Of a stretch of 64,000 nt of DNA, positions 5,185 through 22,211 are shown in pieces. The notes beneath the pieces were generated by a model. The model had not been told where the DNA came from and did no database searches. It was given only the letters and a program-made list of their open reading frames with translations. Source of the stretch: a virus; the IMG/VR virus record IMGVR_UViG_3300025168_000072, positions 4,596 to 68,595 of that record, one strand, 5' to 3'. The position numbers were made by a program, and so were the translations under genes. Within the stretch, counting starts at the first letter, position 1. Each line of letters begins with the position of its first letter.

Positions 5185-5818
5185 TAATCACACTTGGTTA
5201 CAGAACAAGTCTTGGAATGTCAAAGATGAATACTATACCCCTAAAATCTTAGTGGATGCTATCATGCCGCACCTCCCCCACCCCTTCACCACCTCCACCG
5301 TCCCCGCCACACGCAAAATCGTTTGGTGTCCTTTCGATACCGAGAATAGCGAGTTCGTTATTGGGTTGAGGGAGAAAGGTTACGATGTTATCCACAGCCA
5401 CATTTGGGAGGGGAAAGACTTCTTTCATTATGAGCCGGAACAACACTACGACATGATTATATCGAACCCTCCTTTTACCCTAAAACTAAAAGTGTTTGAA
5501 CGATTGTTCAATTTGGGAAAGCCGTTCCTCATGTTGATGGGGTTGCCGATTCTAAATTATCAGGTTGTCGGAGAATACTTTCACAAGAAACAGAATGAAG
5601 GTAAGAAGTTACAATTGTTAATCGTAGACAAGAAGGTTTCTTTTAACGGTGATACTTCTTCTTTCAACAACTCTTACTTTGGTTGGAACATACTTCAAGA
5701 AGACATTATCTTCGCTCACTTGGAACATAACAATAGTGGTGAAAATTATGTCGGTAGTAGAATGGGCGACAGTGAATCGTTGCCGGAGATAGAAAAGAAA
5801 AAGGTGGAGTGGTTTTAA
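5177..5818 (+). CDS. Small phage-type N6-adenine DNA methyltransferase
   Basis: DEYYTP, VWCPFD, GKDFF and ISNPPF motifs; ends KKKVEWF. Confidence 0.85.
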   Translation: MTDNHTWLQNKSWNVKDEYYTPKILVDAIMPHLPHPFTTSTVPATRKIVWCPFDTENSEFVIGLREKGYDVIHSHIWEGKDFFHYEPEQHYDMIISNPPFTLKLKVFERLFNLGKPFLMLMGLPILNYQVVGEYFHKKQNEGKKLQLLIVDKKVSFNGDTSSFNNSYFGWNILQEDIIFAHLEHNNSGENYVGSRMGDSESLPEIEKKKVEWF

Positions 5819-6438
5819 TGAGAACAAAGAATGAGATTGAACAACGGCTCGCATCCGAGCATAACGCATTGACGATTGAAACCCTTCGTTGGGTTCTCAA
5901 CAATCCCGACTGCCCCATGTGTGGAATCGGAACAAGAAAGGAATTAGAAGTCGGTGTTCATTCAGGTGATGTAACCACATTATATTTAGAGGAAAAGTAT
6001 TCTTGGCCGGTTGGCACAGTGATGACTCACATGGATGAGCATGTAGACTACGACCCCGAAGAAGCGAGACACATGGAAAGAATGCGAGGGGAGAGCATAG
6101 ACACGCTCGACAGCGCACAGGATATTGTCTCCCGTCTTTTGGGGTGGCTCGATGAATTGGAGGCTATCAAAGACTCAACCGGAGGTATAACTTCGGAGTG
6201 GGTTGCCGACGCTTCTAAATTGGTTGCTCAAGCAAACACCTCTCTTCGACTTGTCGGACAACTCAAAAAGGAAATTGGCGTGGACTCGCAATTACTTTTA
6301 GCGCAAAAACAAATGGATGGGGTTATGGGTATTCTGGTGAACAGTCTACGCGATTCACCGCATCTTTTGGATGACATAGAATTTAGAATCGCTTCTCTCA
6401 AACCCCCGACAAATGTTATTGAATATACGGATGTGTGA
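5818..6438 (+). CDS. Zn-finger/HTH plus coiled-coil protein (possible terminase-small-like)
   Basis: CPMC...HMDEH metal-binding/HTH-like N-terminus followed by long helices; function uncertain. Confidence 0.5.
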   Translation: MRTKNEIEQRLASEHNALTIETLRWVLNNPDCPMCGIGTRKELEVGVHSGDVTTLYLEEKYSWPVGTVMTHMDEHVDYDPEEARHMERMRGESIDTLDSAQDIVSRLLGWLDELEAIKDSTGGITSEWVADASKLVAQANTSLRLVGQLKKEIGVDSQLLLAQKQMDGVMGILVNSLRDSPHLLDDIEFRIASLKPPTNVIEYTDV

Positions 6439-6440
6439 TT

Positions 6441-6704
6441 ATGGCAAAAACATGGAGAAATAAACCACGCAACTCGCTCTACGCTCGGCGCATTCAACGG
6501 GTAGAGTTTCCTCGATTGATTGAAGCCATGAAAGATGACATGCTCGACTGCCAAATCCAAGACACCGGCTTGGTGTGGTCTATCAAAGGTTATCGTATCG
6601 CATCCTCCGAAGTGGCTCGCAATTGGGGTATCACTTATGCACAAATGAAAAGGTTTCAGGATTACATCTATGAGAAAGACCCTTGGTATGCGGAGTATCG
6701 GTGA
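6441..6704 (+). CDS. Hypothetical protein, possible HTH
   Basis: SSEVARNWGITYAQM resembles an HTH motif. Confidence 0.55.
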   Translation: MAKTWRNKPRNSLYARRIQRVEFPRLIEAMKDDMLDCQIQDTGLVWSIKGYRIASSEVARNWGITYAQMKRFQDYIYEKDPWYAEYR

Positions 6705-6709
6705 GTATT

Positions 6710-7375
6710 ATGGGAATAGTAATACTTACTGCCGATGATTCGGCTTACCGTTTGGGTAGAGTGATTGAATCGCGAGGTTTGAAACATCCTCCGACCGCAC
6801 CCGATACTACATACCTTGTTCACCAAAGTAAAATAACCGAAAAAGAAATCACTCATTGGATTGGGCTTGTCCCGTATCGTTTGGTATTTGTCATCAAGAA
6901 ATTACCGAGACTTAGTAAGCAAACTAAGGAGGCTATCATCATTGACAAGAGCCTCGCTGAATCTAAAAACCCATACAAGAAGGGTATTGATGCCCTGTTT
7001 AGGTGGGGCGACCGTCGAAGAGTTCACAATTTGTTCGTGGGAACGCCTGTCCCTTTAGCATTGGCGTTTGTAAGACAAAACAACAAAGACATCAGGTTGT
7101 GGCGTATGCTTGCCGATGTCTCATTCACGCTACCGACTGAATATGCCGAAGCGGTTTTGGTCTACGGAATCAAACCGTCGAACAAATCAGTGGCTTGGCC
7201 GAAGAAGTCAAAGAAGGATGATGAAGCACCTCCACAATTTAGGCAGTCCGATAAGTATTGGCGTAAAATTATTGACATCGAACCAAAGGTGAGAAATCAA
7301 ATCCGAACACAGACACCGGACAAAGCACCAACCACCATGAAAAAACGGAGGGAGAAAACCCATGAATGGTTTTGA
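6710..7375 (+). CDS. Putative degenerate clamp-loader large subunit (RFC-L/gp62-like, no Walker A)
   Basis: C-half pattern IDALF...AFVRQN...LADV...YAEAVLVYGI...WP resembles the archaeal RFC-L collar; ends EKTHEWF like PolB. Confidence 0.45.
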   Translation: MGIVILTADDSAYRLGRVIESRGLKHPPTAPDTTYLVHQSKITEKEITHWIGLVPYRLVFVIKKLPRLSKQTKEAIIIDKSLAESKNPYKKGIDALFRWGDRRRVHNLFVGTPVPLALAFVRQNNKDIRLWRMLADVSFTLPTEYAEAVLVYGIKPSNKSVAWPKKSKKDDEAPPQFRQSDKYWRKIIDIEPKVRNQIRTQTPDKAPTTMKKRREKTHEWF

Positions 7376-7640
7376 ATTTTCTTTTGGTGTTTTTACCTTA
7401 ATTCTAATTGGTTATGTTGGTAACAAAATCGAAGAGGCCAAAAAGAAAAGGATGCTTTTTCGGGCGGCTTACCCCACAATCCCTTATCACTTACAAGGCC
7501 AACCGGCGCGAGGCGGTGCGACACACAATTTTACTGTAAATCAAGACGAAGCCCAAGAAGAAAAGGCTTACGAGTTTCAGGAACATTTCTTTGATTGGGT
7601 AGACAACTCCGACTTCTTGACTTTCAACGATGACTTTTAA
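7362..7640 (+). CDS. Small membrane-anchored protein
   Basis: N-terminal hydrophobic helix FSFGVFTLILIGYVG and an acidic tail. Confidence 0.6.
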   Translation: MNGFEFSFGVFTLILIGYVGNKIEEAKKKRMLFRAAYPTIPYHLQGQPARGGATHNFTVNQDEAQEEKAYEFQEHFFDWVDNSDFLTFNDDF

Positions 7641-7684
7641 CTTTAACGGCAACTTTATTAAGCGACCAAAGAAACAATTATACA

Positions 7685-8092
7685 ATGAGTGCTACGAACC
7701 GCCGAGTCCGACGCGCCATACTTGAGATACTCTGGGATGAAGGCCCGCTAACAAAAGAAGAGGTGGCCGTTGAATTAGCAAAGCGAAAGGGCGTTGGTCG
7801 TGTGCCAAGCCCACACAGTCTTTCCGCTTTGTTGTGTAAATCTAATTCAGTAATTAGTGTCGGAAAGAAGACGGTGCAAAATATAATTGGGGTAAAAGCA
7901 AAACACTTACTGTATGATATTGACCGTGAAATAGTTCTCAAAGTCTCGGAGATAGAATACATCCGAGAGCCGTCTACTATGACCCCTAAAGAAAGGGAGA
8001 AAGCCGCAAAGTGCAAGTCCTGTTCCCGAACAAGAATCTTTCCTGAAAATGAGAATGAGTGTATTTCTTGTTTACGCACCCCGAACCCATAG
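7685..8092 (+). CDS. wHTH plus C-terminal Zn-ribbon protein (putative transcription regulator)
   Basis: RRAILEILWDEGPLTKEEVA (wHTH-like) and CKSC...CISC. Confidence 0.7.
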   Translation: MSATNRRVRRAILEILWDEGPLTKEEVAVELAKRKGVGRVPSPHSLSALLCKSNSVISVGKKTVQNIIGVKAKHLLYDIDREIVLKVSEIEYIREPSTMTPKEREKAAKCKSCSRTRIFPENENECISCLRTPNP

Positions 8093-8133
8093 TCGTATTA
8101 GTCGTCTATTAGTCGTATAGGCAGGTTTATATA
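8090..8133 (+). promoter_or_regulatory. TTAGTCG-box promoter
   Basis: TTAGTCG at 8098 and 8109 (plus TAGTCG at 8090), 10-bp spacer, TTTATATA at 8126-8133. Confidence 0.8.
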
Positions 8134-8168
8134 GTATGAGATGTATGTATATATGTAAGGGGAACCGA

Positions 8169-8393: not shown

Positions 8394-8396
8394 AAA

Positions 8397-8801: not shown

Positions 8802-9239
8802 ATGTTCAAGAGAAGCCCATACAAAGTCGGACAAACGGTTCGCGTTAATGACATCAAGCCGAAAATGAACGGTCGTGCCAAAATGATACCTTCAGGAACC
8901 GGAGGTTTTGTCGTAAAAGAAGTTCACCCGCAACTTAATCAAAACAACGGTGGTTATCTCATCGTTGCCGAGAGCAACCGCAATATCGAAGGTGGTAAGG
9001 TTCACCTCTCATGGCATGTCATGTGGCCGCACTTCAACGGTCGCAAATCACCGACCGAATATCATTCGGCTTTCCGAATCATCGTTGAGGGTCGCACACC
9101 GACCCCCAAAGCCAACGCTTATATACCTCGCCAAACAACAGCAAATAGTGAAGACAAAACCAACACTATTATCGCTAAGTCTGTTCCCGCAGGTTCAAGA
9201 CCGAAGCGACTTGTTTTGGCAGACTTTTTGGAGGAATGA
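8802..9239 (+). CDS. Hypothetical protein with SH3-like N-terminus
   Basis: YKVGQTVRV resembles a KOW/SH3-like start. Confidence 0.65.
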   Translation: MFKRSPYKVGQTVRVNDIKPKMNGRAKMIPSGTGGFVVKEVHPQLNQNNGGYLIVAESNRNIEGGKVHLSWHVMWPHFNGRKSPTEYHSAFRIIVEGRTPTPKANAYIPRQTTANSEDKTNTIIAKSVPAGSRPKRLVLADFLEE

Positions 9240-9242
9240 AAA

Positions 9243-9395
9243 ATGGTAACAGTGAAAATAAGAATAGATTTAGAATTGGATATTGAAGTAGAAACAGACG
9301 AATTGATGGATGCGACCCTTCGGGATATTATCGCTCAACATATCAAGGACTATTACATGGATGACATTGCAGACAACGCACAGGTGATTGGATGA
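9243..9395 (+). CDS. Small acidic hypothetical protein, 50 aa
   Basis: Hand-translated MVTVKIRIDLELDIEV...; GGAGG RBS; ATGA-coupled to the next ORF. Confidence 0.6.
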   Translation: MVTVKIRIDLELDIEVETDELMDATLRDIIAQHIKDYYMDDIADNAQVIG

Positions 9396-9562
9396 GCGAC
9401 GAGATGGTAAGTGCATTAACAAACATCATCGGCTTATTGGCCGAATGTGATGAAACCTTAGATGATGTCGTTATCGTGAACCGTGATGGTGTCATTGAAG
9501 CCCTTCGTGGTATCATTCAGGATGAATGGATGCGAACAGGTGTTTTGGCGGTGGTTGAATGA
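9392..9562 (+). CDS. Small hypothetical protein, 56 aa
   Basis: Hand-translated MSDEMVSAL...; ATGA overlaps on both sides. Confidence 0.6.
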   Translation: MSDEMVSALTNIIGLLAECDETLDDVVIVNRDGVIEALRGIIQDEWMRTGVLAVVE

Positions 9563-9804
9563 TTACTCTTCACGATTTACTACCTCTTGTCGAAGCCCTT
9601 CGTGGTCTACAATTAGACCAAGTGCAAAGTGTCGCTGACCGCGATACCGACGAGGATAATTACAATTACTCTCACCTTATTACTATTAGGAGAACACTTG
9701 CTCGCTACAATGAAGCGTATGCCCCTTACCTCAACTTTGATGAAGACATTGCTTTCATCAAAGAATTGTTAGAGGAATATGCAAACGAGGTGATGAACGG
9801 ATGA
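9559..9804 (+). CDS. Hypothetical protein
   Basis: Coupled ORF in the chain. Confidence 0.65.
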   Translation: MITLHDLLPLVEALRGLQLDQVQSVADRDTDEDNYNYSHLITIRRTLARYNEAYAPYLNFDEDIAFIKELLEEYANEVMNG

Positions 9805-10070
9805 ACGCAAACGAATTGTTCAAGGGTCTACGAAGAATTAAGAGTAGAGTAAATTACTCGGACTTCATCAAGCACTTCTATGGCGACGACCGGTGCGGCG
9901 AAACATACCGCATGGCCCAATGGACTATGTTCAGGGATAACCTTGTGTCGTTTTGGTGTTACTCCGACAACACTCGCCAAGCACTTGTTGAGTCTTTGGT
10001 TGAGCGACATGCCGCAAAGGAAAAACAAGCCGAAGAACTCTCCGCAGTCATTGACGAGGTGGGCGTTTGA
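9801..10070 (+). CDS. Hypothetical protein
   Basis: GAGGTGA RBS; coupled ORF. Confidence 0.65.
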   Translation: MNANELFKGLRRIKSRVNYSDFIKHFYGDDRCGETYRMAQWTMFRDNLVSFWCYSDNTRQALVESLVERHAAKEKQAEELSAVIDEVGV

Positions 10071-10514: not shown

Positions 10515-10627
10515 AGTGTGCTTGTGGTGCTTGGCATTGTGATACTATCGGAGTTGCATACTCCTTTGAATGTATCTTTTGTATTGAGAGAGGTATGTGT
10601 TTTCTTTTAAGTGAGGTGGGGCAATGA
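10511..10627 (+). CDS. Cys-rich microprotein, 38 aa
   Basis: MKCACG...CIFC; coupled to RFC. Confidence 0.45.
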   Translation: MKCACGAWHCDTIGVAYSFECIFCIERGMCFLLSEVGQ

Positions 10628-11538
10628 GCGTTTGGGCTACTAAACACCGACCGAGGACTCTACAAGATGTCGTCGGACAGGATGAAATCGTTAATGAATT
10701 AAAGGCAATAGTAAGTGGTAAAGCACCTATGCAACATTACATATTTCATTCTCCCGAAGCCGGAACAGGAAAGACTTCTGTTGCGAATGCTATGGCAACC
10801 GAAATGCGTTGGCAACTCATCATGTTCAATGCGTCTTCTAAGAAAGAGCGAGGTATTGACTTCATCGAAGAAGTTATTATTCCCTTAACAAGAAGTGGTA
10901 TCAAGGAACGGATATTCTTTTTGGATGAAGCCGACCAACTTACTGATGCGGCGCAGTCGGCACTGAAAGGTGTGATAGAAAACGCCAACGGTATTTTCAT
11001 CCTGACATGCAACAACTTGACAAAGGTTTCACGGTGGCTTCAATCTCGATGCCAAGTCCGAACCTTCAAACCGATTCCGCATGATGCAATGGTCGGTAGA
11101 CTGCGAGCGATTGTTACGATGGAGGGAATGCGTAGCCACCTAAGCGGAGGCTTGGAGACACTTGATATTATCGCAAAAGCACATGCCGGTGATTTGAGAA
11201 ATGCTATCGGTGCAACTCAAGCGTATGTTCACATGATTGTTCCCGACCAAGAGAAATTCTTGGATTCTTTAATCACACCAGAATTGAATTACAAATTACT
11301 TTTACGCCTATGTTTCCTTGAGAACGGATTCGATGAGGCATTGAAAATGTTCGTCGGAGAAGTCCGCGAACAAGTGCGTGAGACTTTCCGATACGCCGTC
11401 AATAGCGGTGCTAATGCGGAGTCTAAAATGCAGGTTATCGAAGCCGCAGTAGTGGCCGAGAGAGATATACTCAACGGAGTAGACGCTGAAATAGTGCGCC
11501 ATAACTTCATTAGAATGTTGGTCGGAGGGAGCCAATAA
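10624..11538 (+). CDS. rfcS: Replication factor C small subunit (clamp loader)
   Basis: WATKHRP, VVGQ, AGTGKTS, FNAS..RGID, LDEAD, QSRC and GDLRNAI motifs. Confidence 0.95.
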   Translation: MSVWATKHRPRTLQDVVGQDEIVNELKAIVSGKAPMQHYIFHSPEAGTGKTSVANAMATEMRWQLIMFNASSKKERGIDFIEEVIIPLTRSGIKERIFFLDEADQLTDAAQSALKGVIENANGIFILTCNNLTKVSRWLQSRCQVRTFKPIPHDAMVGRLRAIVTMEGMRSHLSGGLETLDIIAKAHAGDLRNAIGATQAYVHMIVPDQEKFLDSLITPELNYKLLLRLCFLENGFDEALKMFVGEVREQVRETFRYAVNSGANAESKMQVIEAAVVAERDILNGVDAEIVRHNFIRMLVGGSQ

Positions 11539-11590
11539 CAACCTTTTAATACCCCCCAATGAAAACGAATAGATACAGGAAGTGAACCAA

Positions 11591-12820
11591 ATGGTAGCAT
11601 ACGAACAGATGATAGAAAAAGTGGCCGGACAGATTAAAACAACCGTAGAAGCATTATCGGCAAAGGCCGATTTGCTTTTGGCACAAGAAGGTGCAGGTTG
11701 GGAAGCCGCCGGTAAGAATGAAGAACAGCGAAAGGTTTTGGCTCTACGAGTAGCGGCCCGACAAATCTCAAGCGAAAAGGCAAAACTGACCCGTAGTGGT
11801 GCTACTCTCTTTGAGGGTATGTTCGCATCCGTTCCCCGTGAAAAGGATTGGGCGAAGATGGCTTACAACAAGATGAAGAACACTCTCGCAACTATGGATG
11901 AATCAGGTCGTTTGGCCCTTGTTGAACAAGGTGCTATTGTTCTTTACGAGAACAACCACGACGGCACTTACACTCGACACTCCAACCCTTCTTTAATGGC
12001 AAAACAAACTTTTGAAGAAGGCTCAACCTCCGCCGACATTACTTCTCTCCCACCTCGACAAATGGACTTGGATGCAAACACATCCTTCTCTTTGATTTGG
12101 GATAAAAATAACATGACCTTTGCTAATGGTAATGCCAACTTCAAATACGGCTCAAACAGACCGCTTGAAGAACTCGACCGAACATGCTTGTTCTTGGGTC
12201 GAAAGCAAGGAACAAACGATGACCCTGAAATGATTGAAGTTCGCCTCTCCGGTGAACAGGCTAAAATCCAATTCCCGACATTTGTTTGCGGAACCATCGG
12301 TTTGAAACCTGCGGCTAAAGCAGGTCTTTGTTACGGCTCTAAGGCTACTGCCTTTACTGCCGATGACTCGGTGATGGATATTTTCTCCGCCCCGCCTCTC
12401 ATGCTTGACGACGACGGCTCTCCGGTCGGACTTGTCGCTGATTGGCTCGGTAACAACCTGAAACCTTCTATCGAATCGTGTGGTAAAGCATACGCCGAAC
12501 TCGACCAAAAGGCAAAGTGGAACACTCTCTTCGGAACTATTGTCGAAGTCGTTCACATTGACCCACGCGAAAACGGTGGCTTCATCGTTTCTCTTGGCGA
12601 CACTGACATTATGAGCGAGGCCGAAGTAGTCTCTCTCTATGTCCCTGCCGACCAAGAAGGTGAAGTGGACTTCGGAGTTGGTTCGGAACTACTCATCGTT
12701 GGCTCTCCTTGGATTACCCGTGAAGAAGAACTTCGATTCATGGTGAACTCATGGTGGTGTGTCAATCGAATCGCACCTATGGCCGACACTGAAACAGTAG
12801 ACGGCGACGGTTGGGATTGA
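11591..12820 (+). CDS. Putative single-stranded DNA-binding (RPA/OB-fold) protein
   Basis: Beta-rich C-terminal OB-like segment (GTIVEVVHID...FGVGSELLIVG), acidic-aromatic tail DGDGWD, and replication context. Confidence 0.5.
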   Translation: MVAYEQMIEKVAGQIKTTVEALSAKADLLLAQEGAGWEAAGKNEEQRKVLALRVAARQISSEKAKLTRSGATLFEGMFASVPREKDWAKMAYNKMKNTLATMDESGRLALVEQGAIVLYENNHDGTYTRHSNPSLMAKQTFEEGSTSADITSLPPRQMDLDANTSFSLIWDKNNMTFANGNANFKYGSNRPLEELDRTCLFLGRKQGTNDDPEMIEVRLSGEQAKIQFPTFVCGTIGLKPAAKAGLCYGSKATAFTADDSVMDIFSAPPLMLDDDGSPVGLVADWLGNNLKPSIESCGKAYAELDQKAKWNTLFGTIVEVVHIDPRENGGFIVSLGDTDIMSEAEVVSLYVPADQEGEVDFGVGSELLIVGSPWITREEELRFMVNSWWCVNRIAPMADTETVDGDGWD

Positions 12821-14456: not shown

Positions 14457-15398
14457 ATGTCGTGGAACACCAACAAAAAGACGAGCGCACCGACCCCTGA
14501 AAAGGTGGGGTTCGGCAAAGAATACTACCGAAATATGTTTGAGAACAATACGGCCCAATCCGTTCCTGTTCGCTGTGCTTTGGTTGCCAAAGAAAACTGT
14601 GCCAAGACCGGACTCGCTATCAGTCTGTCTCGCCAAGTAAACGCAAAGGGTAAAATCTATGTCATTGATGTAGACAACTCCGCTAAGGCCACCATTGATG
14701 AAGCATACCCGAAAGACAAGGACATCATCGTTCTACCTCTTTTGGATGAGCGAGACGACTCAATTTTCAATGAGGATTCGACCGTTGATTATGCGGCCCT
14801 CACTGACAAAATGAATATGTATACGAACATTATTGCCGAGAAAATCAAAGAAGGTGAAAACATTACCGGAATAGTATTTGACGGTGGTTCAACTTATCTC
14901 AAGTGGTGTGAACACGCTATGACTGCTGTTCTACTACGCAAAGGAACAATCAAAGAAGAAGGTGATGCTTTCAACCAGAAGGAATGGCGAACCCGAAATC
15001 AACTGTTCCGCCAAACCATGACTCGACTTCATGGACTCGCTGTGCCTTCGGTGTTCTTTACTTTTCACCTAAAGGATGTCTCAAATTATGTAGACAATGG
15101 TTCCGGTGGTAAAGTGCTAATGAAGATTGGCGACAAACCTGATTGGGACAAAGGCACTATGCGTTTGTTCTCTCAACAGATATTCCTTGCTCGATACATG
15201 AAGAAGGCCGACTCCGCCGTTGGTGTCAAGGCCGACCCAACGCTCAAGAACACTGACGATTGGGTTGTCAAGGCGACCCTTGAAGAAATCAAAGGTAAGC
15301 ACATGCAAATGGTCGGAGAAACACACACTATCCTTTCAGTTATTAAGGGTAAAGTAAAGTGGGATGGACTACCTATGCTTACATGGGGTGATGAATAA
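14457..15398 (+). CDS. RecA/RadA-superfamily (Sak4/AAA_24-like) ATPase
   Basis: Degenerate Walker A AKENCAKT, YVIDVD, Walker B IVFDG, and FFTFH. Confidence 0.7.
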   Translation: MSWNTNKKTSAPTPEKVGFGKEYYRNMFENNTAQSVPVRCALVAKENCAKTGLAISLSRQVNAKGKIYVIDVDNSAKATIDEAYPKDKDIIVLPLLDERDDSIFNEDSTVDYAALTDKMNMYTNIIAEKIKEGENITGIVFDGGSTYLKWCEHAMTAVLLRKGTIKEEGDAFNQKEWRTRNQLFRQTMTRLHGLAVPSVFFTFHLKDVSNYVDNGSGGKVLMKIGDKPDWDKGTMRLFSQQIFLARYMKKADSAVGVKADPTLKNTDDWVVKATLEEIKGKHMQMVGETHTILSVIKGKVKWDGLPMLTWGDE

Positions 15399-15658
15399 TG
15401 TCGAATAAAGATGACGAACTTACTTCTTTGCTTGTGTCGAATATCGAATTGATAGGAACTCGACTTGACCTAATCAACGAGAGGATGGAGAGAATGATGA
15501 AGCGTGTAGAATCGCTTGAAATCGACAACCTCCCGTTGAACGATGTCAATTTGTTGAAACAAGCCGTCGAAGAAATCCAACAGGAATACGAAGCACCGGC
15601 AACTCGATTCACATATCATGTGCCATCCGTCTTCAACAAGAAGGGGGCTAAACAATGA
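15398..15658 (+). CDS. Small coiled-coil protein
   Basis: Heptad pattern; coupled to both neighbours. Confidence 0.65.
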   Translation: MSNKDDELTSLLVSNIELIGTRLDLINERMERMMKRVESLEIDNLPLNDVNLLKQAVEEIQQEYEAPATRFTYHVPSVFNKKGAKQ

Positions 15659-16485
15659 ACATCAGTAACAATTCCCTGAAACACATGCTCATCACGACCA
15701 AGCGAAAGCAAACGGTCGCAGGTAAAGCGCAGTCGCAGGTGGAGTCTTGTTTGTTGAAGGTAGAGGCTAACATTGCTTCTATCACTTCTCTCACTAAGGA
15801 CTTGACCGGACTTACGCATGTTCAATGTGATGCTAACGGTTACGATTGGAACGGAACATTCCCTATTCCTGACATTGACCGAGTGCTTGGTATCTTGGCC
15901 CTTCACGGTGCTAATGTAGAACTTGCTTACAATGCCGGTAAAAATAAATTGGTATTCAAAAGTGGTTCTAAACAAACAACCCTCGACGCTTCTCCTGATG
16001 CTTTGGCGTTCTCACATAGCCAAGATACAATTAGCGACCATACAAGCCGCAGTAATGACCTCGCAGGGCGTATCAACGCTATGGGTGGAGTCTACACTAC
16101 TGCCGACGGTAACGAGATACAGTCAATCGCTTGTTACACTGTTAATTCTACTGAAATGTTTGAAGCACTACGATGCGATAACATGAACGGACAGAAGTTT
16201 AACCGTTATACTTTTTCGGGTGAAGACAAAGGACTTAGCGTTCTTGTTGGCGACCCATCTATCGGCGGAGAAACCTTGACCGCAATACAGGTTGAAGGTC
16301 TTTCACCGGTTGAACCGAAGGCTTGGGAATGGTCTTTCGACGGTGGACTTGATGAATTGTTCAAGCAATTTTCAGGCCCCTGCAACATCCACATATTTGA
16401 CTTTACAGAACACGGACAAGGAATGCGTATGGCTATTGGTTTTCACAACGGCTGTTGGGCTTTTCAGTCCGGTATTCTTGAATGA
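15655..16485 (+). CDS. Divergent PCNA-like sliding clamp
   Basis: 276 aa with two repeats of the clamp helix/strand pattern (SCLLKV..ASITSLTKDLTGLTHV...IPDIDRVLGIL...VELAY..KLVFKS); RFC and PolB are nearby. Confidence 0.6.
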   Translation: MNISNNSLKHMLITTKRKQTVAGKAQSQVESCLLKVEANIASITSLTKDLTGLTHVQCDANGYDWNGTFPIPDIDRVLGILALHGANVELAYNAGKNKLVFKSGSKQTTLDASPDALAFSHSQDTISDHTSRSNDLAGRINAMGGVYTTADGNEIQSIACYTVNSTEMFEALRCDNMNGQKFNRYTFSGEDKGLSVLVGDPSIGGETLTAIQVEGLSPVEPKAWEWSFDGGLDELFKQFSGPCNIHIFDFTEHGQGMRMAIGFHNGCWAFQSGILE

Positions 16486-16928
16486 TGCTAACATGGGAGG
16501 GGATTCGGTTGTCGAAAGATGATGAAAAGGTGCTTAACAATCCTCCACAAATGGATTCTGCGGGGAACTCGGTTTTCGCCTCGCGCACATCCTCCCGCCA
16601 TTTAGCAAACGGTCTACGCAACGGCACTATGATGAAGTCGCTGACCCAAAATCAATCCTTTGAATTGGTAGAGGCACTACACGGTCATGTCTCAAGTAGA
16701 AAATTGTATTTGAAAGTAGCATGTTTGGCTGTTCTAAAATACGATTCTTCAGGAGAGCCTTTGTCTCCGGCGGAGGTAGCGAACCGTTCTCGTAAATATA
16801 CTCAAAAGAACTGCACTATGTCGCCAAGAACATGCGCGAGCGTCTTGGCTATGTTGAGTCGCTTGGGTCTTATTGGTAGAACTCCACGAAAACCGTTTCA
16901 TTATTGGTGGGGTGTAGATGGAAATTGA
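16482..16928 (+). CDS. Putative wHTH protein
   Basis: PLSPAEVA...SPRTCASVLAMLSRLGLI...YWW. Confidence 0.6.
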   Translation: MMLTWEGIRLSKDDEKVLNNPPQMDSAGNSVFASRTSSRHLANGLRNGTMMKSLTQNQSFELVEALHGHVSSRKLYLKVACLAVLKYDSSGEPLSPAEVANRSRKYTQKNCTMSPRTCASVLAMLSRLGLIGRTPRKPFHYWWGVDGN

Positions 16929-18072
16929 TATTCTAAACGGCGACTGCATAGAAATGATGAAGAGTCTACCGGATAACTGCGTAGATACCTGCATTACCTC
17001 TCCGCCTTATTGGGGTCTTCGTGACTACGGAGGCGGCGGTAAGGTTTGGGGGGGCGACCCTGAATGCGAATGTGATTGGGAGGGTTACGAGCGACCGAGT
17101 GAAAATACCCGTAATAATAACAATTCACTACAATTGAAATCCGCATATTGGGAACCTCAAGAACAGGCTAACTGTAAACACTGTGATGCTTGGTTCGGAC
17201 AACTCGGACTTGAGCCGACCATAGAACAGTATGTTAAAAATATGGTAGAAGTATTCTCTCATGTTCACCGAATTCTCAAACCCGAAGGCACACTATGGTT
17301 GAATCTCGGTGATTCATACGCGAGTGGAAAAAGTAGATACTCTACTAAGAATAACACTATTGCCGGTGGCGGAAAACATGAGAAATTTGGCTCACTACAA
17401 GAGGGCAACAGGCCCGATGTAAAGTCTCATCCCGTTCTCAAGGACAAGGATTTGGTCGGCGTTCCTTGGAGGGTCGCATTTGCACTACAAGAAGCCGGTT
17501 GGTGGCTACGACAAGACATCATATGGGCCAAGCCCAATTGTATGCCTGAATCGGTCAAAGACCGTTGCACCAAGAACCATGAATATATGTTCCTTCTCAC
17601 TAAGTCTCACAAGTATTACTTCGACAACGAGGCTATCAAAGAAAATACGGTAAAAAAAGCCGACAAGAGAAAGTCGGCGTTTACCTATGCCGACAACGAA
17701 GAATGGGCTAAGGACAAAGACGCATCCAGAATCAGTAAGGCGAAGGGGATTGCCGAAGCGAGAACTAAGAATTACGCTAAAAGAAACAAGCGTAGTGTTT
17801 GGTGGGTCGGCCCGAAACCATTCCCCGAAGCACACTTCGCCGTATTCCCTATCGAACTGATTGAACCCTGCATCCTCGCCGGTAGTCCGGTCGGAGGAAC
17901 GGTGTTTGACCCCTTCGGTGGTTCAGGCACTACTGCCATTGCCGCTATCAAGCATGGTCGCAACGCTATCCTTACAGAATTAAGCGAAAAGTATATCGAG
18001 ATTGCCGAGAAGCGGATTGCCGACTTCAAAGCGCAACAAGGACTTGACAAGAAGAATGTTCAGTGGTTGTAA
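16918..18072 (+). CDS. Beta-class DNA methyltransferase (N4-cytosine type, SPPY)
   Basis: GDC, TSPPYW, LKPEGTLWLNLGDSY, IIWAKPN, HFAVFP and DPFGGSGTT motifs; ends KKNVQWL. Confidence 0.95.
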   Translation: MEIDILNGDCIEMMKSLPDNCVDTCITSPPYWGLRDYGGGGKVWGGDPECECDWEGYERPSENTRNNNNSLQLKSAYWEPQEQANCKHCDAWFGQLGLEPTIEQYVKNMVEVFSHVHRILKPEGTLWLNLGDSYASGKSRYSTKNNTIAGGGKHEKFGSLQEGNRPDVKSHPVLKDKDLVGVPWRVAFALQEAGWWLRQDIIWAKPNCMPESVKDRCTKNHEYMFLLTKSHKYYFDNEAIKENTVKKADKRKSAFTYADNEEWAKDKDASRISKAKGIAEARTKNYAKRNKRSVWWVGPKPFPEAHFAVFPIELIEPCILAGSPVGGTVFDPFGGSGTTAIAAIKHGRNAILTELSEKYIEIAEKRIADFKAQQGLDKKNVQWL

Positions 18073-18227: not shown

Positions 18228-18285
18228 TTGGGTTTATAGGGTTCATAGATAACTCTTATATACGCCGCCATTAGTGGTATTATTC

Positions 18286-18749: not shown

Positions 18750-18770
18750 CTACCCTTATATACCCCCCCA
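18750..18770 (+). promoter_or_regulatory. Archaeal TATA promoter, ACCCTTATATACCCC class
   Basis: TACCCTTATATACCCCCC upstream of polB; near-identical copy at about 22899 and related copies at about 11541, 14423 and 18252. Confidence 0.7.
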
Positions 18771-18783
18771 CTAATTGTTAATT

Positions 18784-21012
18784 ATGAATGTGGAGGCAGT
18801 CGGTCGCAACGATGTTCTTGTTAGATACAGGGATATTCACGGCAAAAGAAAGGAAAAGCGAATCAAAGAGTATTTGCCTTATTGTTATCTACGCACAGAA
18901 GACGCTTCTTGGTTTTCCGAAGGTGATGTGCAACATGGCTACACCGGTATGTTCGGTGAAGAGTTATCCAAAGTTTCGTGTTTCTCTCAATGGGATATAC
19001 GGCAACTCGCAAAGACCGGTGAAACATGGGAGGGTAATGTTCCCTTCACTAATCAGGTATTGACTAAGCGTGTGCGAGACGGTTTGGAACCTTTCGAGGC
19101 TTACGACCATAGGGTATGGTATCTCGATGGTGAATGGAAAACAGGAACCGGTGAGATAACTATGCTCTCGGTCTATGATACTTTTACCGCTAATCTTTAT
19201 TCTTGGGTTGTTATGCCAAACGGCATCTCTAAGGGAAAATACAGTATGTTGAAGGATGAATCAGGTAAAGAATACCACTACGATACACCCATAATCGTCT
19301 TTGATACGGAGGCCGAACTACTAAATCACTTCATTGGGTTCATGCGAAAGCAAGACCCCGACATCATCACCGGTTGGTATGTGAACGGTGCGGATATTAG
19401 CCAAATCGTAAAGCGGTGCGGTAAGGTGAATGTGCGCGCTTCTCTCATGTCTCCTATCAACAAGTTAAGGTATGACTTTGGCGATTGGCAACAACCTATC
19501 GTTGGTCGAAACATCATTGACTTGATGCTCGCATTCCCTAAATTGTATGAATTGAAGAATGGCAAATTATCCGGCTACAAATTAGACGATGTGGCTTGGG
19601 AAGTATTAGGGGAAAAGAAAGTAGAGTTACCCGACGGCCACGACACATACTACTCCGACCCCGTAAAGTATCTCGATTACAACCGACAGGATGTGCGCCT
19701 TCTACCTCGGTTAAACAGAACCGTAAATGCTCTTGAGTATTTTGTTGCTGTTCAACATATCGCCCAATGCGAAATTCAATCCACTCCACACATTACCAAA
19801 GTGTTCACATGCCTCGCTTTGTCCGACCCTGAACTCGACCGACAACTCCCCTCCAAACCAATGTTTGACAAGGTAGATTATGACGGTGGAATTGTCATGG
19901 ATGGTGAAACCGGATTCTATGAGAACATAGGTATTTTTGATGTAAAAGCAATGTATCATAGCAACGCCGCACTTCACAACATCTCTTGGGATATGCTCGA
20001 TGAGAAAGGTAAAGATTGTGGCAACGGAACATCGTTTAATCAAGATAAGAAAGGTTTGCTTGTTCGACAGATGGATAGGATGACTACGCTACGAGATGAA
20101 TACAAGGCATCAATGTGGGATGCTATAAATGATGAAGAAGTTACTCGATACGATGCTCTACAATACGCCACTAAGTCTCTTGTTGCCTCGATGTATGGTG
20201 TGGCGGGTGATTCTAAGTATGGTCTTTACCACCCTGAAATAGCGGCGGCTATCACATTTACCTCAAGAACAACACTAATGAGATTGAAGGACATTGCCGA
20301 AGAAATGGGCCACGAAGTAGTTTACGGCCACACCGATTCGGTCATGTGTCGGGTAGATAGCCCAATCGTCGGTGAGGATTCGGTAAAGGAAATAAACGCT
20401 CAAATGTTCCCTATCATAGTGCAGTTTGAGAAGTGGTCTAAGTCATTCCTTCTCATGGGTAAGAACAGATACACCGGACTTGTCTCATGGACTGATGGCG
20501 AACACCACGAACCTAAGCGTTATGTTAAGGGAATAGAACTCAAGCAATCCCGTATGCCAACGGTGATGAAGAACGCTATGGGTCGGGTCATTGACGGCAT
20601 CCTGAAGCGAGAAGATGAAGGCGTAGTCTCCGAAGAATTAGTTACTCTCATTGATAATGTTATCTCAAAACAAATCGACCCTCTACTACTTTGTATGAAG
20701 GGTAAATTAAGTAAGGATTTGTCGAACTACCGTAGCGTTAGTGGTTCGGCGGCAGGGGCGCAATGGGCCAACCGCAACCTCGGTAAGTATTACCGTAAAG
20801 ATGATTACTTCTTGTGCGCTATAAATCCTGAAGGTAAATACTTGGCCTTTGACGAGCCTTCGGAATTGGAGGGTGTAGCGGAAATAGGCTACCGGACAAT
20901 GGTTGAGCGTTTTATTATCTCTAAAGTAAAACCATACTACGAAGTCGCTAAGTGGGATTTGGGGCCGTTGCTTCGTGCTATGGATGGAAAAAGCAAGGTG
21001 GAATGGTTATGA
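18784..21012 (+). CDS. polB: Family B DNA polymerase
   Basis: Exo I YLDGE, Exo II GWY..GADI, Exo III YNRQDV; Pol A FDVKAMY, Pol B K...ASMYG, Pol C YGHTDS; KNRY and KGIE; ends KSKVEWL. Confidence 0.97.
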   Translation: MNVEAVGRNDVLVRYRDIHGKRKEKRIKEYLPYCYLRTEDASWFSEGDVQHGYTGMFGEELSKVSCFSQWDIRQLAKTGETWEGNVPFTNQVLTKRVRDGLEPFEAYDHRVWYLDGEWKTGTGEITMLSVYDTFTANLYSWVVMPNGISKGKYSMLKDESGKEYHYDTPIIVFDTEAELLNHFIGFMRKQDPDIITGWYVNGADISQIVKRCGKVNVRASLMSPINKLRYDFGDWQQPIVGRNIIDLMLAFPKLYELKNGKLSGYKLDDVAWEVLGEKKVELPDGHDTYYSDPVKYLDYNRQDVRLLPRLNRTVNALEYFVAVQHIAQCEIQSTPHITKVFTCLALSDPELDRQLPSKPMFDKVDYDGGIVMDGETGFYENIGIFDVKAMYHSNAALHNISWDMLDEKGKDCGNGTSFNQDKKGLLVRQMDRMTTLRDEYKASMWDAINDEEVTRYDALQYATKSLVASMYGVAGDSKYGLYHPEIAAAITFTSRTTLMRLKDIAEEMGHEVVYGHTDSVMCRVDSPIVGEDSVKEINAQMFPIIVQFEKWSKSFLLMGKNRYTGLVSWTDGEHHEPKRYVKGIELKQSRMPTVMKNAMGRVIDGILKREDEGVVSEELVTLIDNVISKQIDPLLLCMKGKLSKDLSNYRSVSGSAAGAQWANRNLGKYYRKDDYFLCAINPEGKYLAFDEPSELEGVAEIGYRTMVERFIISKVKPYYEVAKWDLGPLLRAMDGKSKVEWL

Positions 21013-22211
21013 TATTGTATGAAGGGAATTGTTTACAAGAAATGAAGAAGTTACCCGATAACTCGGTTGATTCAATCGTTACCGACCCACCATACGGATT
21101 ATCGTTTCTTGGTAAAAAGTGGGACTATGATGTTCCTTCTGTTGAGATTTGGAGAGAGGCTTTGAGAGTCTTGAAGCCCGGAGGACACCTTCTTTCATTT
21201 GCGGGTTCTCGCACTTATCACCGTATGGCGGTGAACATTGAAGACGCAGGGTTTGAAATCCGTGACCAGATTATGTGGGTCTATGGGTCGGGCTTTCCAA
21301 AGTCAATGTCCGTCAGTAAAGCAATGGATAAGACCGCAGGTGCGGAACGAGAAATAGTGGGTCGAAACCCTAATTCAAGAGAGGAATGCGATAAATCGAA
21401 TACACTTTATGAATCGGGAACCGTTGGCAAAACTGATTACATTACTAAACCCGCTACACTTGAAGCGCAACAATGGGAGGGGTGGGGAACAGCCCTCAAA
21501 CCGGCCCATGAGCCTATTGTCGTCGCCCGTAAGCCCCTCATCGGCACTATCGTTGAAAATGTGCTTGAGCATGGCACAGGTGGCTTGAACATTGATGGTT
21601 GCAGGGTTGAAACAGATGAGAAAATAGTATCAGGTGGGCAAGGTGTGACCGGCAGACCCGCACCTCATTCTGCCGACGAAAGAATAGGGCAAGCATTAGG
21701 TATGTTTCAACAAGGAACAAAAAACACCTTTGTTCAAAACCCAAAAGGTCGTTTCCCTGCTAATTTTATTCACGATGGCTCGGATGAAGTCGTGAGCCTG
21801 TTTCCTGATACGAAAGGTGCAACAAGTCGCACCGACACCGTTTCAACAGGAATGTTTGCCGGTGGGGATGCCGGAACTGTATATCCCGACTCCGGTTCCG
21901 CCGCACGATTCTTTTACTGCGCCAAAGCGAGCAAAGCCGAGCGAAGCGCAGGTCTTGAAAATAACATACACCCAACCGTAAAGCCCGTTGCTTTGATGAA
22001 ATACCTCTGCCGACTTGTTACGCCGCCAAACGGTATTGTTCTTGACCCGTTCATGGGTTCAGGAACAACAGGAATAGCCGCTAAGGTTGAAGGGTTTAAT
22101 TTTATCGGAATAGAAATGAATGTAGAATACCTTGCCATAGCCGAATCCAGAATCAATCATTGGGTCGAAGAATACGAAATAATTCATAAAACAAAGCATG
22201 AATGGGTTTAG
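21009..22211 (+). CDS. Beta-class DNA methyltransferase (N6-adenine type, DPPY)
   Basis: TDPPYG, LKPGGH, GFEIRDQIMW.YGSGFPKS, HPTVKP and DPFMGSGTT motifs; ends KTKHEWV. Confidence 0.95.
   Translation: MILYEGNCLQEMKKLPDNSVDSIVTDPPYGLSFLGKKWDYDVPSVEIWREALRVLKPGGHLLSFAGSRTYHRMAVNIEDAGFEIRDQIMWVYGSGFPKSMSVSKAMDKTAGAEREIVGRNPNSREECDKSNTLYESGTVGKTDYITKPATLEAQQWEGWGTALKPAHEPIVVARKPLIGTIVENVLEHGTGGLNIDGCRVETDEKIVSGGQGVTGRPAPHSADERIGQALGMFQQGTKNTFVQNPKGRFPANFIHDGSDEVVSLFPDTKGATSRTDTVSTGMFAGGDAGTVYPDSGSAARFFYCAKASKAERSAGLENNIHPTVKPVALMKYLCRLVTPPNGIVLDPFMGSGTTGIAAKVEGFNFIGIEMNVEYLAIAESRINHWVEEYEIIHKTKHEWV

What the first reader, a model, noticed from the sequence alone, without database searches (positions are those of the whole stretch)
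5795..22211. Shared C-terminal [VH][EQ]W[FLV] tag on PolB, three methyltransferases and an RFC-L-like protein: candidate private clamp-docking code for replication-coupled methylation
Seen: five unrelated proteins end in a Lys-rich W-penultimate peptide, namely the NPPF methyltransferase (KKKVEWF), 6710-7375 (EKTHEWF), the SPPY methyltransferase (KKNVQWL), PolB (KSKVEWL) and the DPPY methyltransferase (KTKHEWV). The codons differ, so this is not an RBS artefact, and I saw it on no structural protein. Known: archaeal PolB and RFC-L bind PCNA through C-terminal PIP boxes (Qxx[LIM]xx[FW][FL]), and eukaryotic DNMT1 rides PCNA. Inference: the virus evolved an orthogonal PIP variant for its divergent clamp (15655-16485) and appended it to acquired methyltransferases so that nascent DNA is methylated at the fork, before host restriction.
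Basis: partly seen in the sequence, partly recalled or inferred. Interest (0 to 1): 0.92.

Follow-up and report, generated by a model that had tools for sequence, protein, structure and literature searches.

The report
Clamp-docking tails on viral DNA methyltransferases
In this marine archaeal virus (a magrovirus) the DNA polymerase, three unrelated DNA methyltransferases and one unknown core protein all end in the same Trp-hydrophobic peptide, which most likely hooks them onto the virus's own sliding clamp so that new viral DNA is methylated as it is copied; binding has not been measured.

Summary
Five genes of the replication module end in K-rich x[VH][EQ]W[FLV]-COOH, and the motif occurs nowhere else in 19,209 residues of the window's ORFs.

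It is selected at protein level. In 72 related viral contigs the W-hydrophobic end is kept on PolB (54 of 56), both N6/N4 methyltransferases (28 of 29; 12 of 13) and the 6710-7375 family (20 of 20). Codons, stop codons and downstream context all vary.

Other tagged proteins in relatives are mostly further DNA methyltransferases. Bacterial homologs (1 of 79) and other viral homologs (1 of 18) lack the tail.

In four of five lineages with other tail types, including a T4-type phage, methyltransferase tails copy their own PolB's tail.

ORF 15655-16485 has a sliding-clamp fold. A complex prediction gave only weak support for tail-clamp docking.

Not supported or untested:
- 'RFC-L-like' for 6710-7375
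- a canonical PIP box
- orthogonality to host PCNA
- timing of methylation before restriction

The scan found the same phenomenon earlier on other DNA. My searches found no paper on it. Verdict: a new variant of the T4-type clamp 'tool-belt'.

The parts
5168..5818 (+). NPPF-type DNA methyltransferase (216 aa). Tail KKKVEWF at 5795-5815.
   Evidence: PHROG phrog_799 DNA methyltransferase, E 9.8e-29. Pfam MTS is weak. Tail. Of 18 viral homologs examined, only the 79%-identical L076 keeps the tail.
6710..7375 (+). Core magrovirus protein of unknown function (221 aa). No Walker A. Tail EKTHEWF at 7352-7372.
   Evidence: No Pfam or PHROG family. Tail kept in 20 of 20 homologs in the loci and 38 of 41 representatives of at least 170 aa. 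AAA+-like N-domain only at Z 5-6. No GK[ST].
10624..11538 (+). RFC small-subunit-like clamp-loader ATPase. Carries no tag.
   Evidence: Pfam AAA 4.9e-13 and DNA_pol3_delta2 1e-08. 0 of 39 homologs end in the tag.
15655..16485 (+). Divergent two-domain sliding clamp (276 aa), the proposed docking platform.
   Evidence: No Pfam or PHROG hit. AlphaFold model pLDDT 89.9, pTM 0.88. All top Foldseek PDB hits are beta clamps or PCNAs, e.g. 2awa_D E 7.9e-11 and 3ifv_B TMt 0.71. Viral clamps dominate in BFVD. Present in every related locus that reaches this region.
16918..18072 (+). SPPY N6/N4 DNA methyltransferase (384 aa). Tail KKNVQWL at 18049-18069.
   Evidence: Pfam N6_N4_Mtase 7.8e-52. 28 of 29 homologs in the loci are tagged. 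56 of 120 database homologs are tagged, including all 46 best hits. 1 of 79 bacterial-genome homologs is tagged.
18775..21012 (+). Family B DNA polymerase. Tail KSKVEWL at 20989-21009.
   Evidence: Pfam DNA_pol_B 2.2e-32 and exonuclease domain 2.6e-08. 54 of 56 homologous ORFs are tagged; the two exceptions are the two pieces of a split gene in L007.
21000..22211 (+). DPPY N6/N4 DNA methyltransferase (403 aa from ATG 21000). Tail KTKHEWV at 22188-22208.
   Evidence: Pfam N6_N4_Mtase 3.3e-34. 12 of 13 homologs in the loci are tagged.

Best explanation
The window is the replication module of a magrovirus, a tailed virus of marine group II archaea. Its PolB, three DNA methyltransferases of unrelated families and a virus-specific core protein (6710-7375) carry a short address peptide. 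This is a basic linker followed by x-x-W-hydrophobic at the very C-terminus.

Proposed mechanism. The Trp, the last hydrophobic residue and the free carboxylate dock onto the virus's own trimeric sliding clamp (15655-16485). The clamp is loaded by the RFC-like ATPase (10624-11538). This is the way the T4/RB69 gp43, gp55 and gp33 C-termini dock onto gp45. PolB gains processivity. The methyltransferases ride free protomers, or clamps left behind the fork, and methylate newly made viral DNA as it is copied, probably as protection from restriction.

Shown: the tag, its protein-level conservation, its restriction to PolB, DNA-modifying enzymes and one core protein, its absence from cellular and other viral homologs, the clamp fold, and the covariation of methyltransferase tails with PolB tails across lineages.

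Inferred: physical binding to the clamp, co-replicative timing and the anti-restriction benefit.
For: (1) Conservation. W[FLVIMYW]-COOH is kept on PolB in 54 of 56, SPPY MTase 28 of 29, DPPY MTase 12 of 13 and the 6683 family 20 of 20. It appears on RFC in 0 of 39, the clamp 0 of 70 and GroEL 0 of 27. Of 131 ORFs ending W[FLVIM] in the 72 loci, 114 belong to these four families.

(2) Protein-level selection. Val, Gln, Leu and Ile codons and all three stop codons vary. The tail is followed either by an overlapping ATG or by an intergenic TTTATA-like stretch.

(3) Other tagged proteins in relatives are three C5 DNA methylases and a further N6/N4 methylase, plus one PLP-dependent enzyme.

(4) The tail is an add-on. 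All 46 best database homologs of the SPPY MTase carry it, and most hits further down the list lack it (56 of 120 tagged overall). It is found on 1 of 79 bacterial-genome homologs and 1 of 18 viral homologs of the NPPF MTase.

(5) Covariation.
- L095/L096: PolB ..PQEWW with MTase ..QKTFDDWW.
- L191-193: PolB ..PVSLW with MTase ..QRTLFDW.
- A T4-type phage lineage, L097/098/101/105/106, whose replisome genes were identified: PolB ..QKFFSF with two MTases ..SYFQF and ..NYFQF.
- With one genome from each of five lineages, the true pairing scored highest of all 120 permutations.

(6) Clamp fold.

(7) Complex prediction, three clamp copies plus the last 30 aa of the SPPY MTase: score 0.58 (runs 0.52, 0.58, 0.61), best of 3 controls 0.02, verdict 'weak support'. 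The mark was reached by 58 of 80 solved complexes and 2 of 110 mismatched pairs. At 0.60 or under it was reached by only 7 of those 80 and by both mismatches that passed. The runs agree in at least 63% of contacts and partner pLDDT is at least 54. My own alignments and the three-copy design differ from the calibration.

(8) Precedent. [quoted passage not shown] The RB69 gp43 tail was crystallised on gp45 (PMC3012046, passages). Magrovirus PolBs group with the T4-like/B5 clade (PMC7544198, passages).

(9) The clade with 47-49% PolB identity lacks GroEL and mostly lacks methyltransferases. It keeps the tag on PolB and the 6683 family, and always has the clamp.
Against: - No binding was measured. 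The only direct test is a prediction rated weak, and no interface was reported.
- The tail fails the canonical PIP definition QXXhXXaa in all five proteins.
- The RFC-like ATPase carries no tag.
- Not every methyltransferase is tagged. Untagged examples are L050's SPPY-type and L007's DPPY-type copies and a third MTase in L098, 944-1828.
- In a fifth phage lineage (10 loci, L140-L173) PolB ends ..SFFE but the MTase ends ..RLKLDE.
- In cultured cyanophage P-SSM4 the gp43 tail (..ASLEFLFG) and the Dam tail (..NPLADLLY) are only loosely alike.
- The covariation test rests on five lineages and on tails I picked by hand.
- Nothing here shows when methylation happens or that the host has restriction enzymes.
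Confidence: 0.7

Rival explanations
1. The tag docks onto another common partner, not the clamp. Candidates are the RFC-like loader, the candidate SSB, the helicase, or a scaffold of a viral replication compartment. The enzymes would still be gathered at replicating DNA, but by a different hub.
For: The tail is not a canonical PIP box. Complex prediction is only weak support. Other module proteins carry their own conserved W-containing ends, so several docking codes may coexist.
Against: PolB C-terminal tails bind the clamp in the related T4/RB69 system. The clamp is present in every related locus that reaches this region. Both partner-replaced controls and the clamp-replaced control scored 0.02 or less, against 0.58 for the real pair. 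In L095/L096 the methyltransferase tail is a canonical PIP-type Q..F..WW.
Confidence: 0.18
2. The tail is a turnover or handling signal, such as a C-terminal degron, a chaperonin tag or a proteasome-docking tag. It would time the abundance or folding of these enzymes rather than place them on DNA.
For: The module encodes a GroEL-type chaperonin. C-terminal hydrophobic ends serve as protease or chaperone signals in other systems (recalled, not tested).
Against: The clade with 47-49% PolB identity has no GroEL between the SSB candidate and the AAA_24 gene, yet keeps the tag. The tagged set is restricted to DNA-acting enzymes. The tail type follows the PolB of each lineage, including a T4-type phage with a gp45-like clamp.
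Confidence: 0.05
3. Nucleotide-level artefact. The shared peptide would be a by-product of a ribosome-binding site, or a stop/start overlap signal, for the next gene.
For: In the window four of five tails overlap or abut the next start codon. Two read AAGGTGGAR, which is Shine-Dalgarno-like. A true example of such an artefact seems to exist in L095/L096, where many genes end in ..GDE or ..GGDE at overlaps.
Against: In relatives the tail persists with different codons and all three stop codons. It also persists where the next gene is tens of bases away behind a TTTATA-like spacer. The DPPY tail in the window is 44 nt from the next ORF. The motif is never internal.
Confidence: 0.02

Closest known systems
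Phage T4/RB69 gp45 clamp 'tool-belt': C-terminal clamp-binding epitopes of gp43 (polymerase), gp55 and gp33
   Same: A virus-encoded trimeric clamp. A short peptide at the extreme C-terminus of PolB is shared, nearly identical, with functionally unrelated proteins on a variable linker (PMC2988020 and PMC3012046, passages). Magrovirus PolB belongs to the same T4-like/B5 clade (PMC7544198, passages).
   Different: The T4 clients are late-transcription factors. Here they are DNA methyltransferases of several families plus an unknown core protein. The T4 epitope is described as hydrophobic and acidic. This one is a basic linker plus W-hydrophobic. Binding is shown for T4 and only predicted here.
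Archaeal C-terminal PIP boxes (QXXhXXaa) of PolB, RFC large subunit, Fen1, RNase HII, NucS and NreA binding PCNA
   Same: Location at the extreme C-terminus behind a flexible linker, an aromatic residue near the end, and use by many DNA enzymes of one replisome (PMC4929162, passages).
   Different: There is no Q and no h at the defined spacing in any of the five tails. The partner is a virus-specific clamp with no Pfam PCNA match. That review names no methyltransferase as a direct PIP client; it only reports an adenine methyltransferase co-purifying with NucS.
PCNA-coupled maintenance methylation in eukaryotes (DNMT1; Tetrahymena AMT6 complex)
   Same: A DNA methyltransferase is recruited by the clamp so that methylation starts right after replication (PMC11761967, passages). 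DNMT1 is recalled, and appears only as that paper's reference 55.
   Different: Those use internal canonical PIP boxes and the host's own PCNA for epigenetic inheritance. Here orphan viral enzymes carry a C-terminal non-canonical tail, with a viral clamp and a presumed anti-restriction purpose.
Bacterial beta-clamp-binding pentapeptide QL[SD]LF (recalled, not from a call)
   Same: A short, often C-terminal hydrophobic motif. The spacing V-x-W-hydrophobic resembles L-x-L-F. The D12 methylases of L095 and L191 end ..QQRLF and ..QQRTLF. The clamp model matches beta clamps as well as it matches PCNAs.
   Different: The clamp here has two domains per chain, not three. Q is absent from the window's tails.

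Membership tests
Canonical PIP box (QXXhXXaa; definition from PMC4929162) | Gln at position 1 | tested here: not met
   Regex Q..[LIM]..[FYW][FYW] finds nothing in the last 30 residues of any of the five proteins. Position -8 is E, R, D, G or H.
Canonical PIP box (QXXhXXaa; definition from PMC4929162) | Leu/Ile/Met at position 4 and two aromatic residues at positions 7-8 | tested here: not met
   Position -5 is K, T, N, K or K. The last two residues are WF in 2 of 5 and WL or WV in 3 of 5.
Canonical PIP box (QXXhXXaa; definition from PMC4929162) | Binds the hydrophobic pocket of PCNA | tested here: inconclusive
   Complex prediction scored 0.58 against a best control of 0.02 and was rated weak. 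No interface was given.
T4-type shared C-terminal clamp-binding epitope | Peptide at the extreme C-terminus of the family B replicative polymerase | tested here: met
   PolB ends ..KSKVEWL. The tail is kept in 54 of 56 homologous ORFs.
T4-type shared C-terminal clamp-binding epitope | The same peptide on other, unrelated proteins of the same virus | tested here: met
   Three methyltransferases and 6710-7375 carry it. In four of five lineages compared, methyltransferase tails follow the PolB tail.
T4-type shared C-terminal clamp-binding epitope | Binding to the viral clamp; epitopes interchangeable | not testable with these tools
   Only a weak computational pass is available. This needs biochemistry.
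Sliding clamp (DNA-clamp fold: PCNA/gp45/beta), for 15655-16485 | Two (PCNA, gp45) or three (beta) repeats of the DNA-clamp domain | tested here: met
   Model pLDDT 89.9. At least 500 Foldseek PDB matches at E <= 0.001, the cap of that count, and all 42 rows listed are clamps, with TM 0.55-0.71. BFVD hits are viral clamps. Sequence-level Pfam, PHROG and PDB searches found nothing.
Sliding clamp (DNA-clamp fold: PCNA/gp45/beta), for 15655-16485 | Closed ring oligomer loaded by an RFC-type loader | not tested
   Three copies were folded only as background, with pLDDT about 90 and no ring score. An RFC-like ATPase is encoded at 10624-11538.
Clamp-loader large or accessory subunit (RFC-L, T4 gp62, bacterial delta), for 6710-7375 | AAA+-type fold (alpha/beta domain, lid, collar) | tested here: inconclusive
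   Model pLDDT 57. Foldseek found no hit at E <= 0.001. VIA-align matched residues 1-84 to P-loop/AAA+ cores at Z 5-5.9 and residues 85-153 to MgsA-type helical domains at Z 5.2-5.7. Clamp-loader subunits scored Z 4.7-5.1, all below the tool's caution line of 8.
Clamp-loader large or accessory subunit (RFC-L, T4 gp62, bacterial delta), for 6710-7375 | Detectable sequence relationship to RFC or other loader subunits | tested here: not met
   hhalign against the viral RFC-S family gave probability 0.4%. The PDB profile search found nothing relevant. A profile search of 1.84 billion representatives found only 87 proteins, none longer than 267 aa. There is no Walker A or GK[ST].
Magrovirus (order Magrovirales) replication module | PolB, sliding clamp, RFC, RadA-like ATPase, SSB and chaperonin in one replicative cluster opposed to a structural cluster | tested here: met
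   Pfam and PHROG hits, the clamp fold and strand layout match the description in PMC5434244 and PMC10768690 (passages). The SSB and MCM assignments were not tested.

The most novel reading that the evidence does not exclude
Viral replisomes use lineage-specific 'address codes'. Each lineage's clamp and PolB tail drift together: W-hydrophobic, WW, ..LW/..DW and F-x-F tails were seen here. Any DNA-modifying enzyme the virus captures is plugged into the replisome simply by acquiring that lineage's tail. DNA methylation in these archaeal viruses and T4-type phages would then be strictly co-replicative. The code might be private, read by the viral clamp but not by the host's PCNA or beta clamp, so that the enzymes ignore host DNA.
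Probability: 0.35. Interest if true: 0.85.

Novelty: new variant of a known kind. Interest (0 to 1): 0.75.

Why it matters
If the tails do dock on the clamp, prokaryotic viruses couple DNA methylation physically to the replication fork. That principle is so far documented for eukaryotic DNMT1 and the ciliate AMT6 complex.

It would explain how orphan viral methyltransferases protect every new genome copy in time. It would also give a simple sequence rule for recognising DNA-modifying enzymes and clamp clients in uncultured viruses: does the protein end like the virus's own PolB?

The same data offer a natural set of co-evolving clamp-peptide pairs for studying how docking specificity changes. 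The idea is directly testable with a few peptides and one recombinant clamp.

My three literature searches and the main texts of three magrovirus papers ('methyltransferase' occurs 0 times in each) show no description of it.

Tried and rejected
RBS or overlap artefact. I considered this seriously because four of five tails touch the next start codon in the window. I rejected it on codon, stop-codon and context variation in relatives.

Chaperonin as partner. Rejected: the clade with 47-49% PolB identity has no GroEL but keeps the tag.

Canonical PIP box. None was found in the last 30 residues of the five proteins. No ORF of at least 100 aa in the window has a looser PIP-like pattern in its last 20 residues.

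Identity of 6710-7375. All of the following led nowhere or were inconclusive:
- Pfam and PHROGs: nothing.
- ESM Atlas: best score 0.88 to unrelated clusters, so no lead.
- PDB profile search: one irrelevant hit at E 0.44.
- AlphaFold: pLDDT only 57.
- Foldseek: nothing at E <= 0.001.
- hhalign against RFC-S: probability 0.4%.
- VIA-align: Z below 6.
- Profile search of 1.84 billion representatives: a narrow family of 87 proteins of about 220 aa or shorter fragments, with no larger relatives.

A viral-contig scan with P0057 gave only three untagged loci at about 51% identity. A scan with P0058 did not find that lineage itself.

Clamp of L095. hhalign of the clamp profile against the 265-aa ORF upstream of L095's PolB gave probability 1.2%. 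hhalign of A3 against L095:1829-2395 gave 0.08%. The clamp of that lineage therefore stays unidentified. L191:5939-6718 has only a sub-threshold DNA_pol3_beta hit (E 0.0037).

I did not obtain host genomes, so I did not compare host PCNA clients.

Rows dropped:
- One search examined 18 of the 19 loci. L094, a 35% partial match, was left out.
- One search counted 79 of the 80 loci. In L293 the ORF ran off the contig.
- ignore ORFs that run off the 3' end of a locus, so truncated PolB genes are not in the denominators.
Full report
WHAT THE WINDOW IS

The plus-strand block at about 150-25,800 encodes the following:
- a family B DNA polymerase
- an RFC-small-subunit-like AAA+ ATPase
- a GroEL-type chaperonin
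- an AAA_24 (RadA-like) ATPase
- a RecB/Cas4-like exonuclease
- three DNA methyltransferases

It faces a minus-strand block of very long ORFs. This layout and gene set match the replicative and structural modules described for magroviruses, the tailed viruses of marine group II archaea. I saw passages of PMC5434244 and PMC10768690. A PolB search of IMG/VR returned 72 related loci with 40-97% identity.

THE OBSERVATION

| ORF | Protein | C-terminus |
|---|---|---|
| 5168-5818 | NPPF methyltransferase | KKKVEWF |
| 6710-7375 | unknown | EKTHEWF |
| 16918-18072 | SPPY methyltransferase | KKNVQWL |
| 18775-21012 | PolB | KSKVEWL |
| 21000-22211 | DPPY methyltransferase | KTKHEWV |

The four-residue pattern occurs nowhere internally in 19,209 residues of 76 non-overlapping ORFs. 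About 0.002 tagged proteins are expected by composition. No structural-block ORF has it.

The five DNA tails are similar, and four of them touch the next start codon. Two even read AAGGTGGAR, which looks like a Shine-Dalgarno site. I therefore tested the nucleotide-level rival in relatives.

PROTEIN LEVEL, NOT DNA LEVEL

Across the 72 loci, W at position -2 is found in 257 of 4,237 ORFs of at least 60 aa, window included. Of the 131 ORFs in the loci that end W[FLVIM], 114 fall in four families. The counts below use the wider pattern W[FLVIMYW]:

| Family | Tagged homologs |
|---|---|
| PolB | 54 of 56 |
| SPPY methyltransferase | 28 of 29 |
| DPPY methyltransferase | 12 of 13 |
| 6710-7375 family | 20 of 20 |
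| RFC | 0 of 39 |
| Clamp | 0 of 70 |
| GroEL | 0 of 27 |

The two PolB exceptions are the two pieces of one split gene in L007.

The codons for Val, Gln, Glu, Leu and Ile vary, and all three stop codons are used. The tail is followed in some genomes by an overlapping ATG and in others by an intergenic TTTATA-like stretch. A profile search of 1.84 billion representatives found 87 members of the 6710-7375 family. Of the 41 that are at least 170 aa long, 38 end W[FLVIM]. There the residues just before the Trp vary freely, while a basic patch (KKRK-like) sits 8-10 residues upstream. The invariant core is therefore basic linker, then W, then a hydrophobic residue, then the C-terminus. The [VH][EQ] positions are only preferences.

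WHO CARRIES IT

Besides the four families, the tagged ORFs in relatives include:
- three C5 cytosine methylases (L024:4180-4791, L005:429-1034, L056:8678-9586)
- another N6/N4 methylase (L056:7755-8687)
- one PLP-dependent enzyme (L056:6795-7637)

The remaining tagged ORFs are short singletons or antisense frames and are probably chance.

The clade with 47-49% PolB identity mostly lacks methyltransferases in this module and lacks GroEL. It keeps the tag on PolB and on the 6710-7375 family. PolB and 6710-7375 are thus the core carriers, and the variable methyltransferases are add-ons.

THE TAIL WAS ADDED TO ACQUIRED ENZYMES

- SPPY enzyme, database homologs. All 46 best hits carry the tail. Among hits further down the list most do not, giving 56 of 120 tagged overall.
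- SPPY enzyme, bacterial genomes. Of 79 homologs at 38-53% identity, one ends W[FLVIM]. Alignments mostly stop at query residue 365-382 of 384.
- NPPF enzyme. Only the 79%-identical magrovirus copy (L076) has the tail. The 17 other viral homologs at 35-64% identity end differently, and alignments stop near residue 199-205 of 216.

COVARIATION ACROSS LINEAGES

Five database homologs of the SPPY enzyme end ..QKTFDDWW..QKTLMDW or ..QKTLMEW. Following these led to more distant viruses:

| Lineage | PolB tail | Methyltransferase tails |
|---|---|---|
| L095/L096 (PolB 25% identical to the window's) | ..AKPQEWW | N6/N4 ..QKTFDDWW, a canonical Q..h..aa pattern; D12 ..LQQRLF |
| L191-L193 | ..SRPVSLW | N6/N4 ..EQRTLFDW; D12 ..QQRTLF; NPPF-type ..PVRWLFD |
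| L097, L098, L101, L105, L106 | ..KKNAQKFFSF | two adjacent enzymes ..IQSYFQF (or ..INSYFEF) and ..IQNYFQF; a third (L098:944-1828) untagged |
| Ten further phage loci (L140-L173) | ..SFFE or ..SFFS | ..RLKLDE, no match |

The L097-L106 lineage is a bacteriophage with a T4-type replisome. It has a gp43-like PolB, a gp45-like processivity factor, and gp44- and gp62-like loader subunits.

I scored the last four residues with BLOSUM62 for one genome from each of five lineages. The true PolB-methyltransferase pairing gave the highest sum of all 120 permutations. The tails were picked by hand and there are only five lineages, so this is supportive rather than decisive.

THE PARTNER

ORF 15655-16485 has no Pfam, PHROG or PDB sequence match. 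With a 27-sequence alignment it folds confidently (pLDDT 89.9, pTM 0.88). All its top Foldseek hits are sliding clamps: bacterial beta clamps and archaeal and eukaryotic PCNAs, with TM up to 0.71. The BFVD hits are viral clamps. At 276 residues and two domains it is PCNA/gp45-like. It is present in every related locus that reaches this region.

One complex prediction used three clamp copies plus the last 30 residues of the SPPY enzyme, each with my own alignment. It scored 0.58 (runs 0.52, 0.58, 0.61) against 0.02 for the best of three controls, and the tool rated this 'weak support'. The mark was reached by 58 of 80 solved complexes and 2 of 110 mismatched pairs. At 0.60 or below it was reached by only 7 of those 80 and by both mismatches that passed. 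The runs agree in at least 63% of contacts, partner pLDDT is at least 54, and no interface was reported. The design also differs from the calibration.

The stronger argument is comparative:
- The RB69 gp43 tail was crystallised on gp45 (PMC3012046, passages).
- Magrovirus PolBs belong to the T4-like/B5 clade (PMC7544198, passages).
- A T4-type phage lineage shows the same sharing of the PolB tail with methyltransferases.

WHAT IS NOT SUPPORTED

- The tail is not a PIP box by the definition QXXhXXaa (PMC4929162, passages). None of the five proteins has the pattern.
- 6710-7375 is not shown to be an RFC large subunit. It has no Walker A and no profile similarity to the viral RFC. Its model is poor and gives only middling AAA+-like and clamp-loader matches at Z 4.7-5.9. 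A non-ATPase fifth loader subunit remains an attractive guess, because only one RFC gene is present and archaeal RFC-L also ends in a clamp-binding motif. I put it at about one in three.
- Orthogonality to the host clamp, co-replicative timing and protection from restriction are inferences.

COMPARISON AND NOVELTY

The system works like the T4 clamp tool-belt and like PCNA-coupled maintenance methylation in eukaryotes (AMT6 in Tetrahymena: PMC11761967, passages; DNMT1 recalled). It is not a member of the canonical PIP family.

Three full-text searches found no paper describing clamp-binding tails on viral or prokaryotic DNA methyltransferases. Three magrovirus papers do not mention methyltransferases in their main text. 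Supplements were closed.

Earlier notes of this scan describe the same phenomenon on other genomes, both magroviruses and T4-like phages. They agree with my reading but are not independent evidence. I rate this a new variant of a known kind, with confidence 0.7 for clamp docking and interest 0.75.

Noticed in passing
window 11582-12820, and homologs in L001-L072: This 412-aa protein has no Pfam or PHROG family and sits between RFC and GroEL. All 40 of its 45 homologs' tails that were listed end in an acidic Trp tail, ..GDGDGWD(A) or ..EGWD. This resembles the acidic C-terminal hub tails of bacterial and phage SSBs (recalled). It may be the module's SSB with its own docking code.
   Followed up: partly
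window 14457-15398 (AAA_24 / RadA-like ATPase): The 40 of 63 homolog tails that were listed keep G-L-P-[FML]-x-x-W one to four residues from the C-terminus (..GLPFLTWK, ..LPMLTWGDE). This is a second conserved Trp motif, distinct from the W-hydrophobic tag.
   Followed up: no
window 16482-16928 and 6435-6704: Two small conserved ORFs also keep Trp-containing ends (..HTYWWRDE and ..DSELISWE) across relatives. Their function is unknown.
   Followed up: no
L095 and L096 (several ORFs, e.g. 3363-4757, 4757-5953, 8989-9999): Many genes end in ..GDE, ..GGDE or ..SGE at short overlaps with the next gene. This looks like a true ribosome-binding-site artefact (GGTGAT-type) and is a useful contrast to the W-hydrophobic tag.
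   Followed up: no
L056:6795-7637: A PLP-dependent enzyme (Pfam PALP, 2.4e-10) in a related virus ends ..EEPAWL. It is the only non-methyltransferase accessory enzyme seen with the tag, and might belong to a DNA-modification pathway.
   Followed up: no
L007:2147-3079: PolB of this relative is split into two ORFs. The second reads through the usual stop (..KVAWLLVFLKAIA). This is a frameshift, a sequencing error or a broken gene.
   Followed up: no
window about 22212-22254; relatives downstream of PolB or the DPPY gene: A conserved A/T-rich TTTATA-like element follows the stop codon, e.g. ..ACATTTATAAC.. in the window and ..GTTTATAT.. in relatives. It lies upstream of the 22255-22584 gene and is a likely archaeal TATA-type promoter.
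   Followed up: no
L219 and L221 (Prochlorococcus phage P-SSM4): The cultured cyanophage's gp43 ends ..ASLEFLFG and its Dam ends ..NPLADLLY. Both are acidic-hydrophobic-Leu-aromatic and only loosely alike. It would be worth checking whether cultured T4-like cyanophages also tether Dam to gp45.
   Followed up: partly
L095:15647-17017(-) and L191:16289-17446: D12-class (Dam-like) methyltransferases of two distant magrovirus-like lineages end ..LQQRLF and ..QQRTLF. This resembles the bacterial beta-clamp-binding pentapeptide (recalled).
   Followed up: partly
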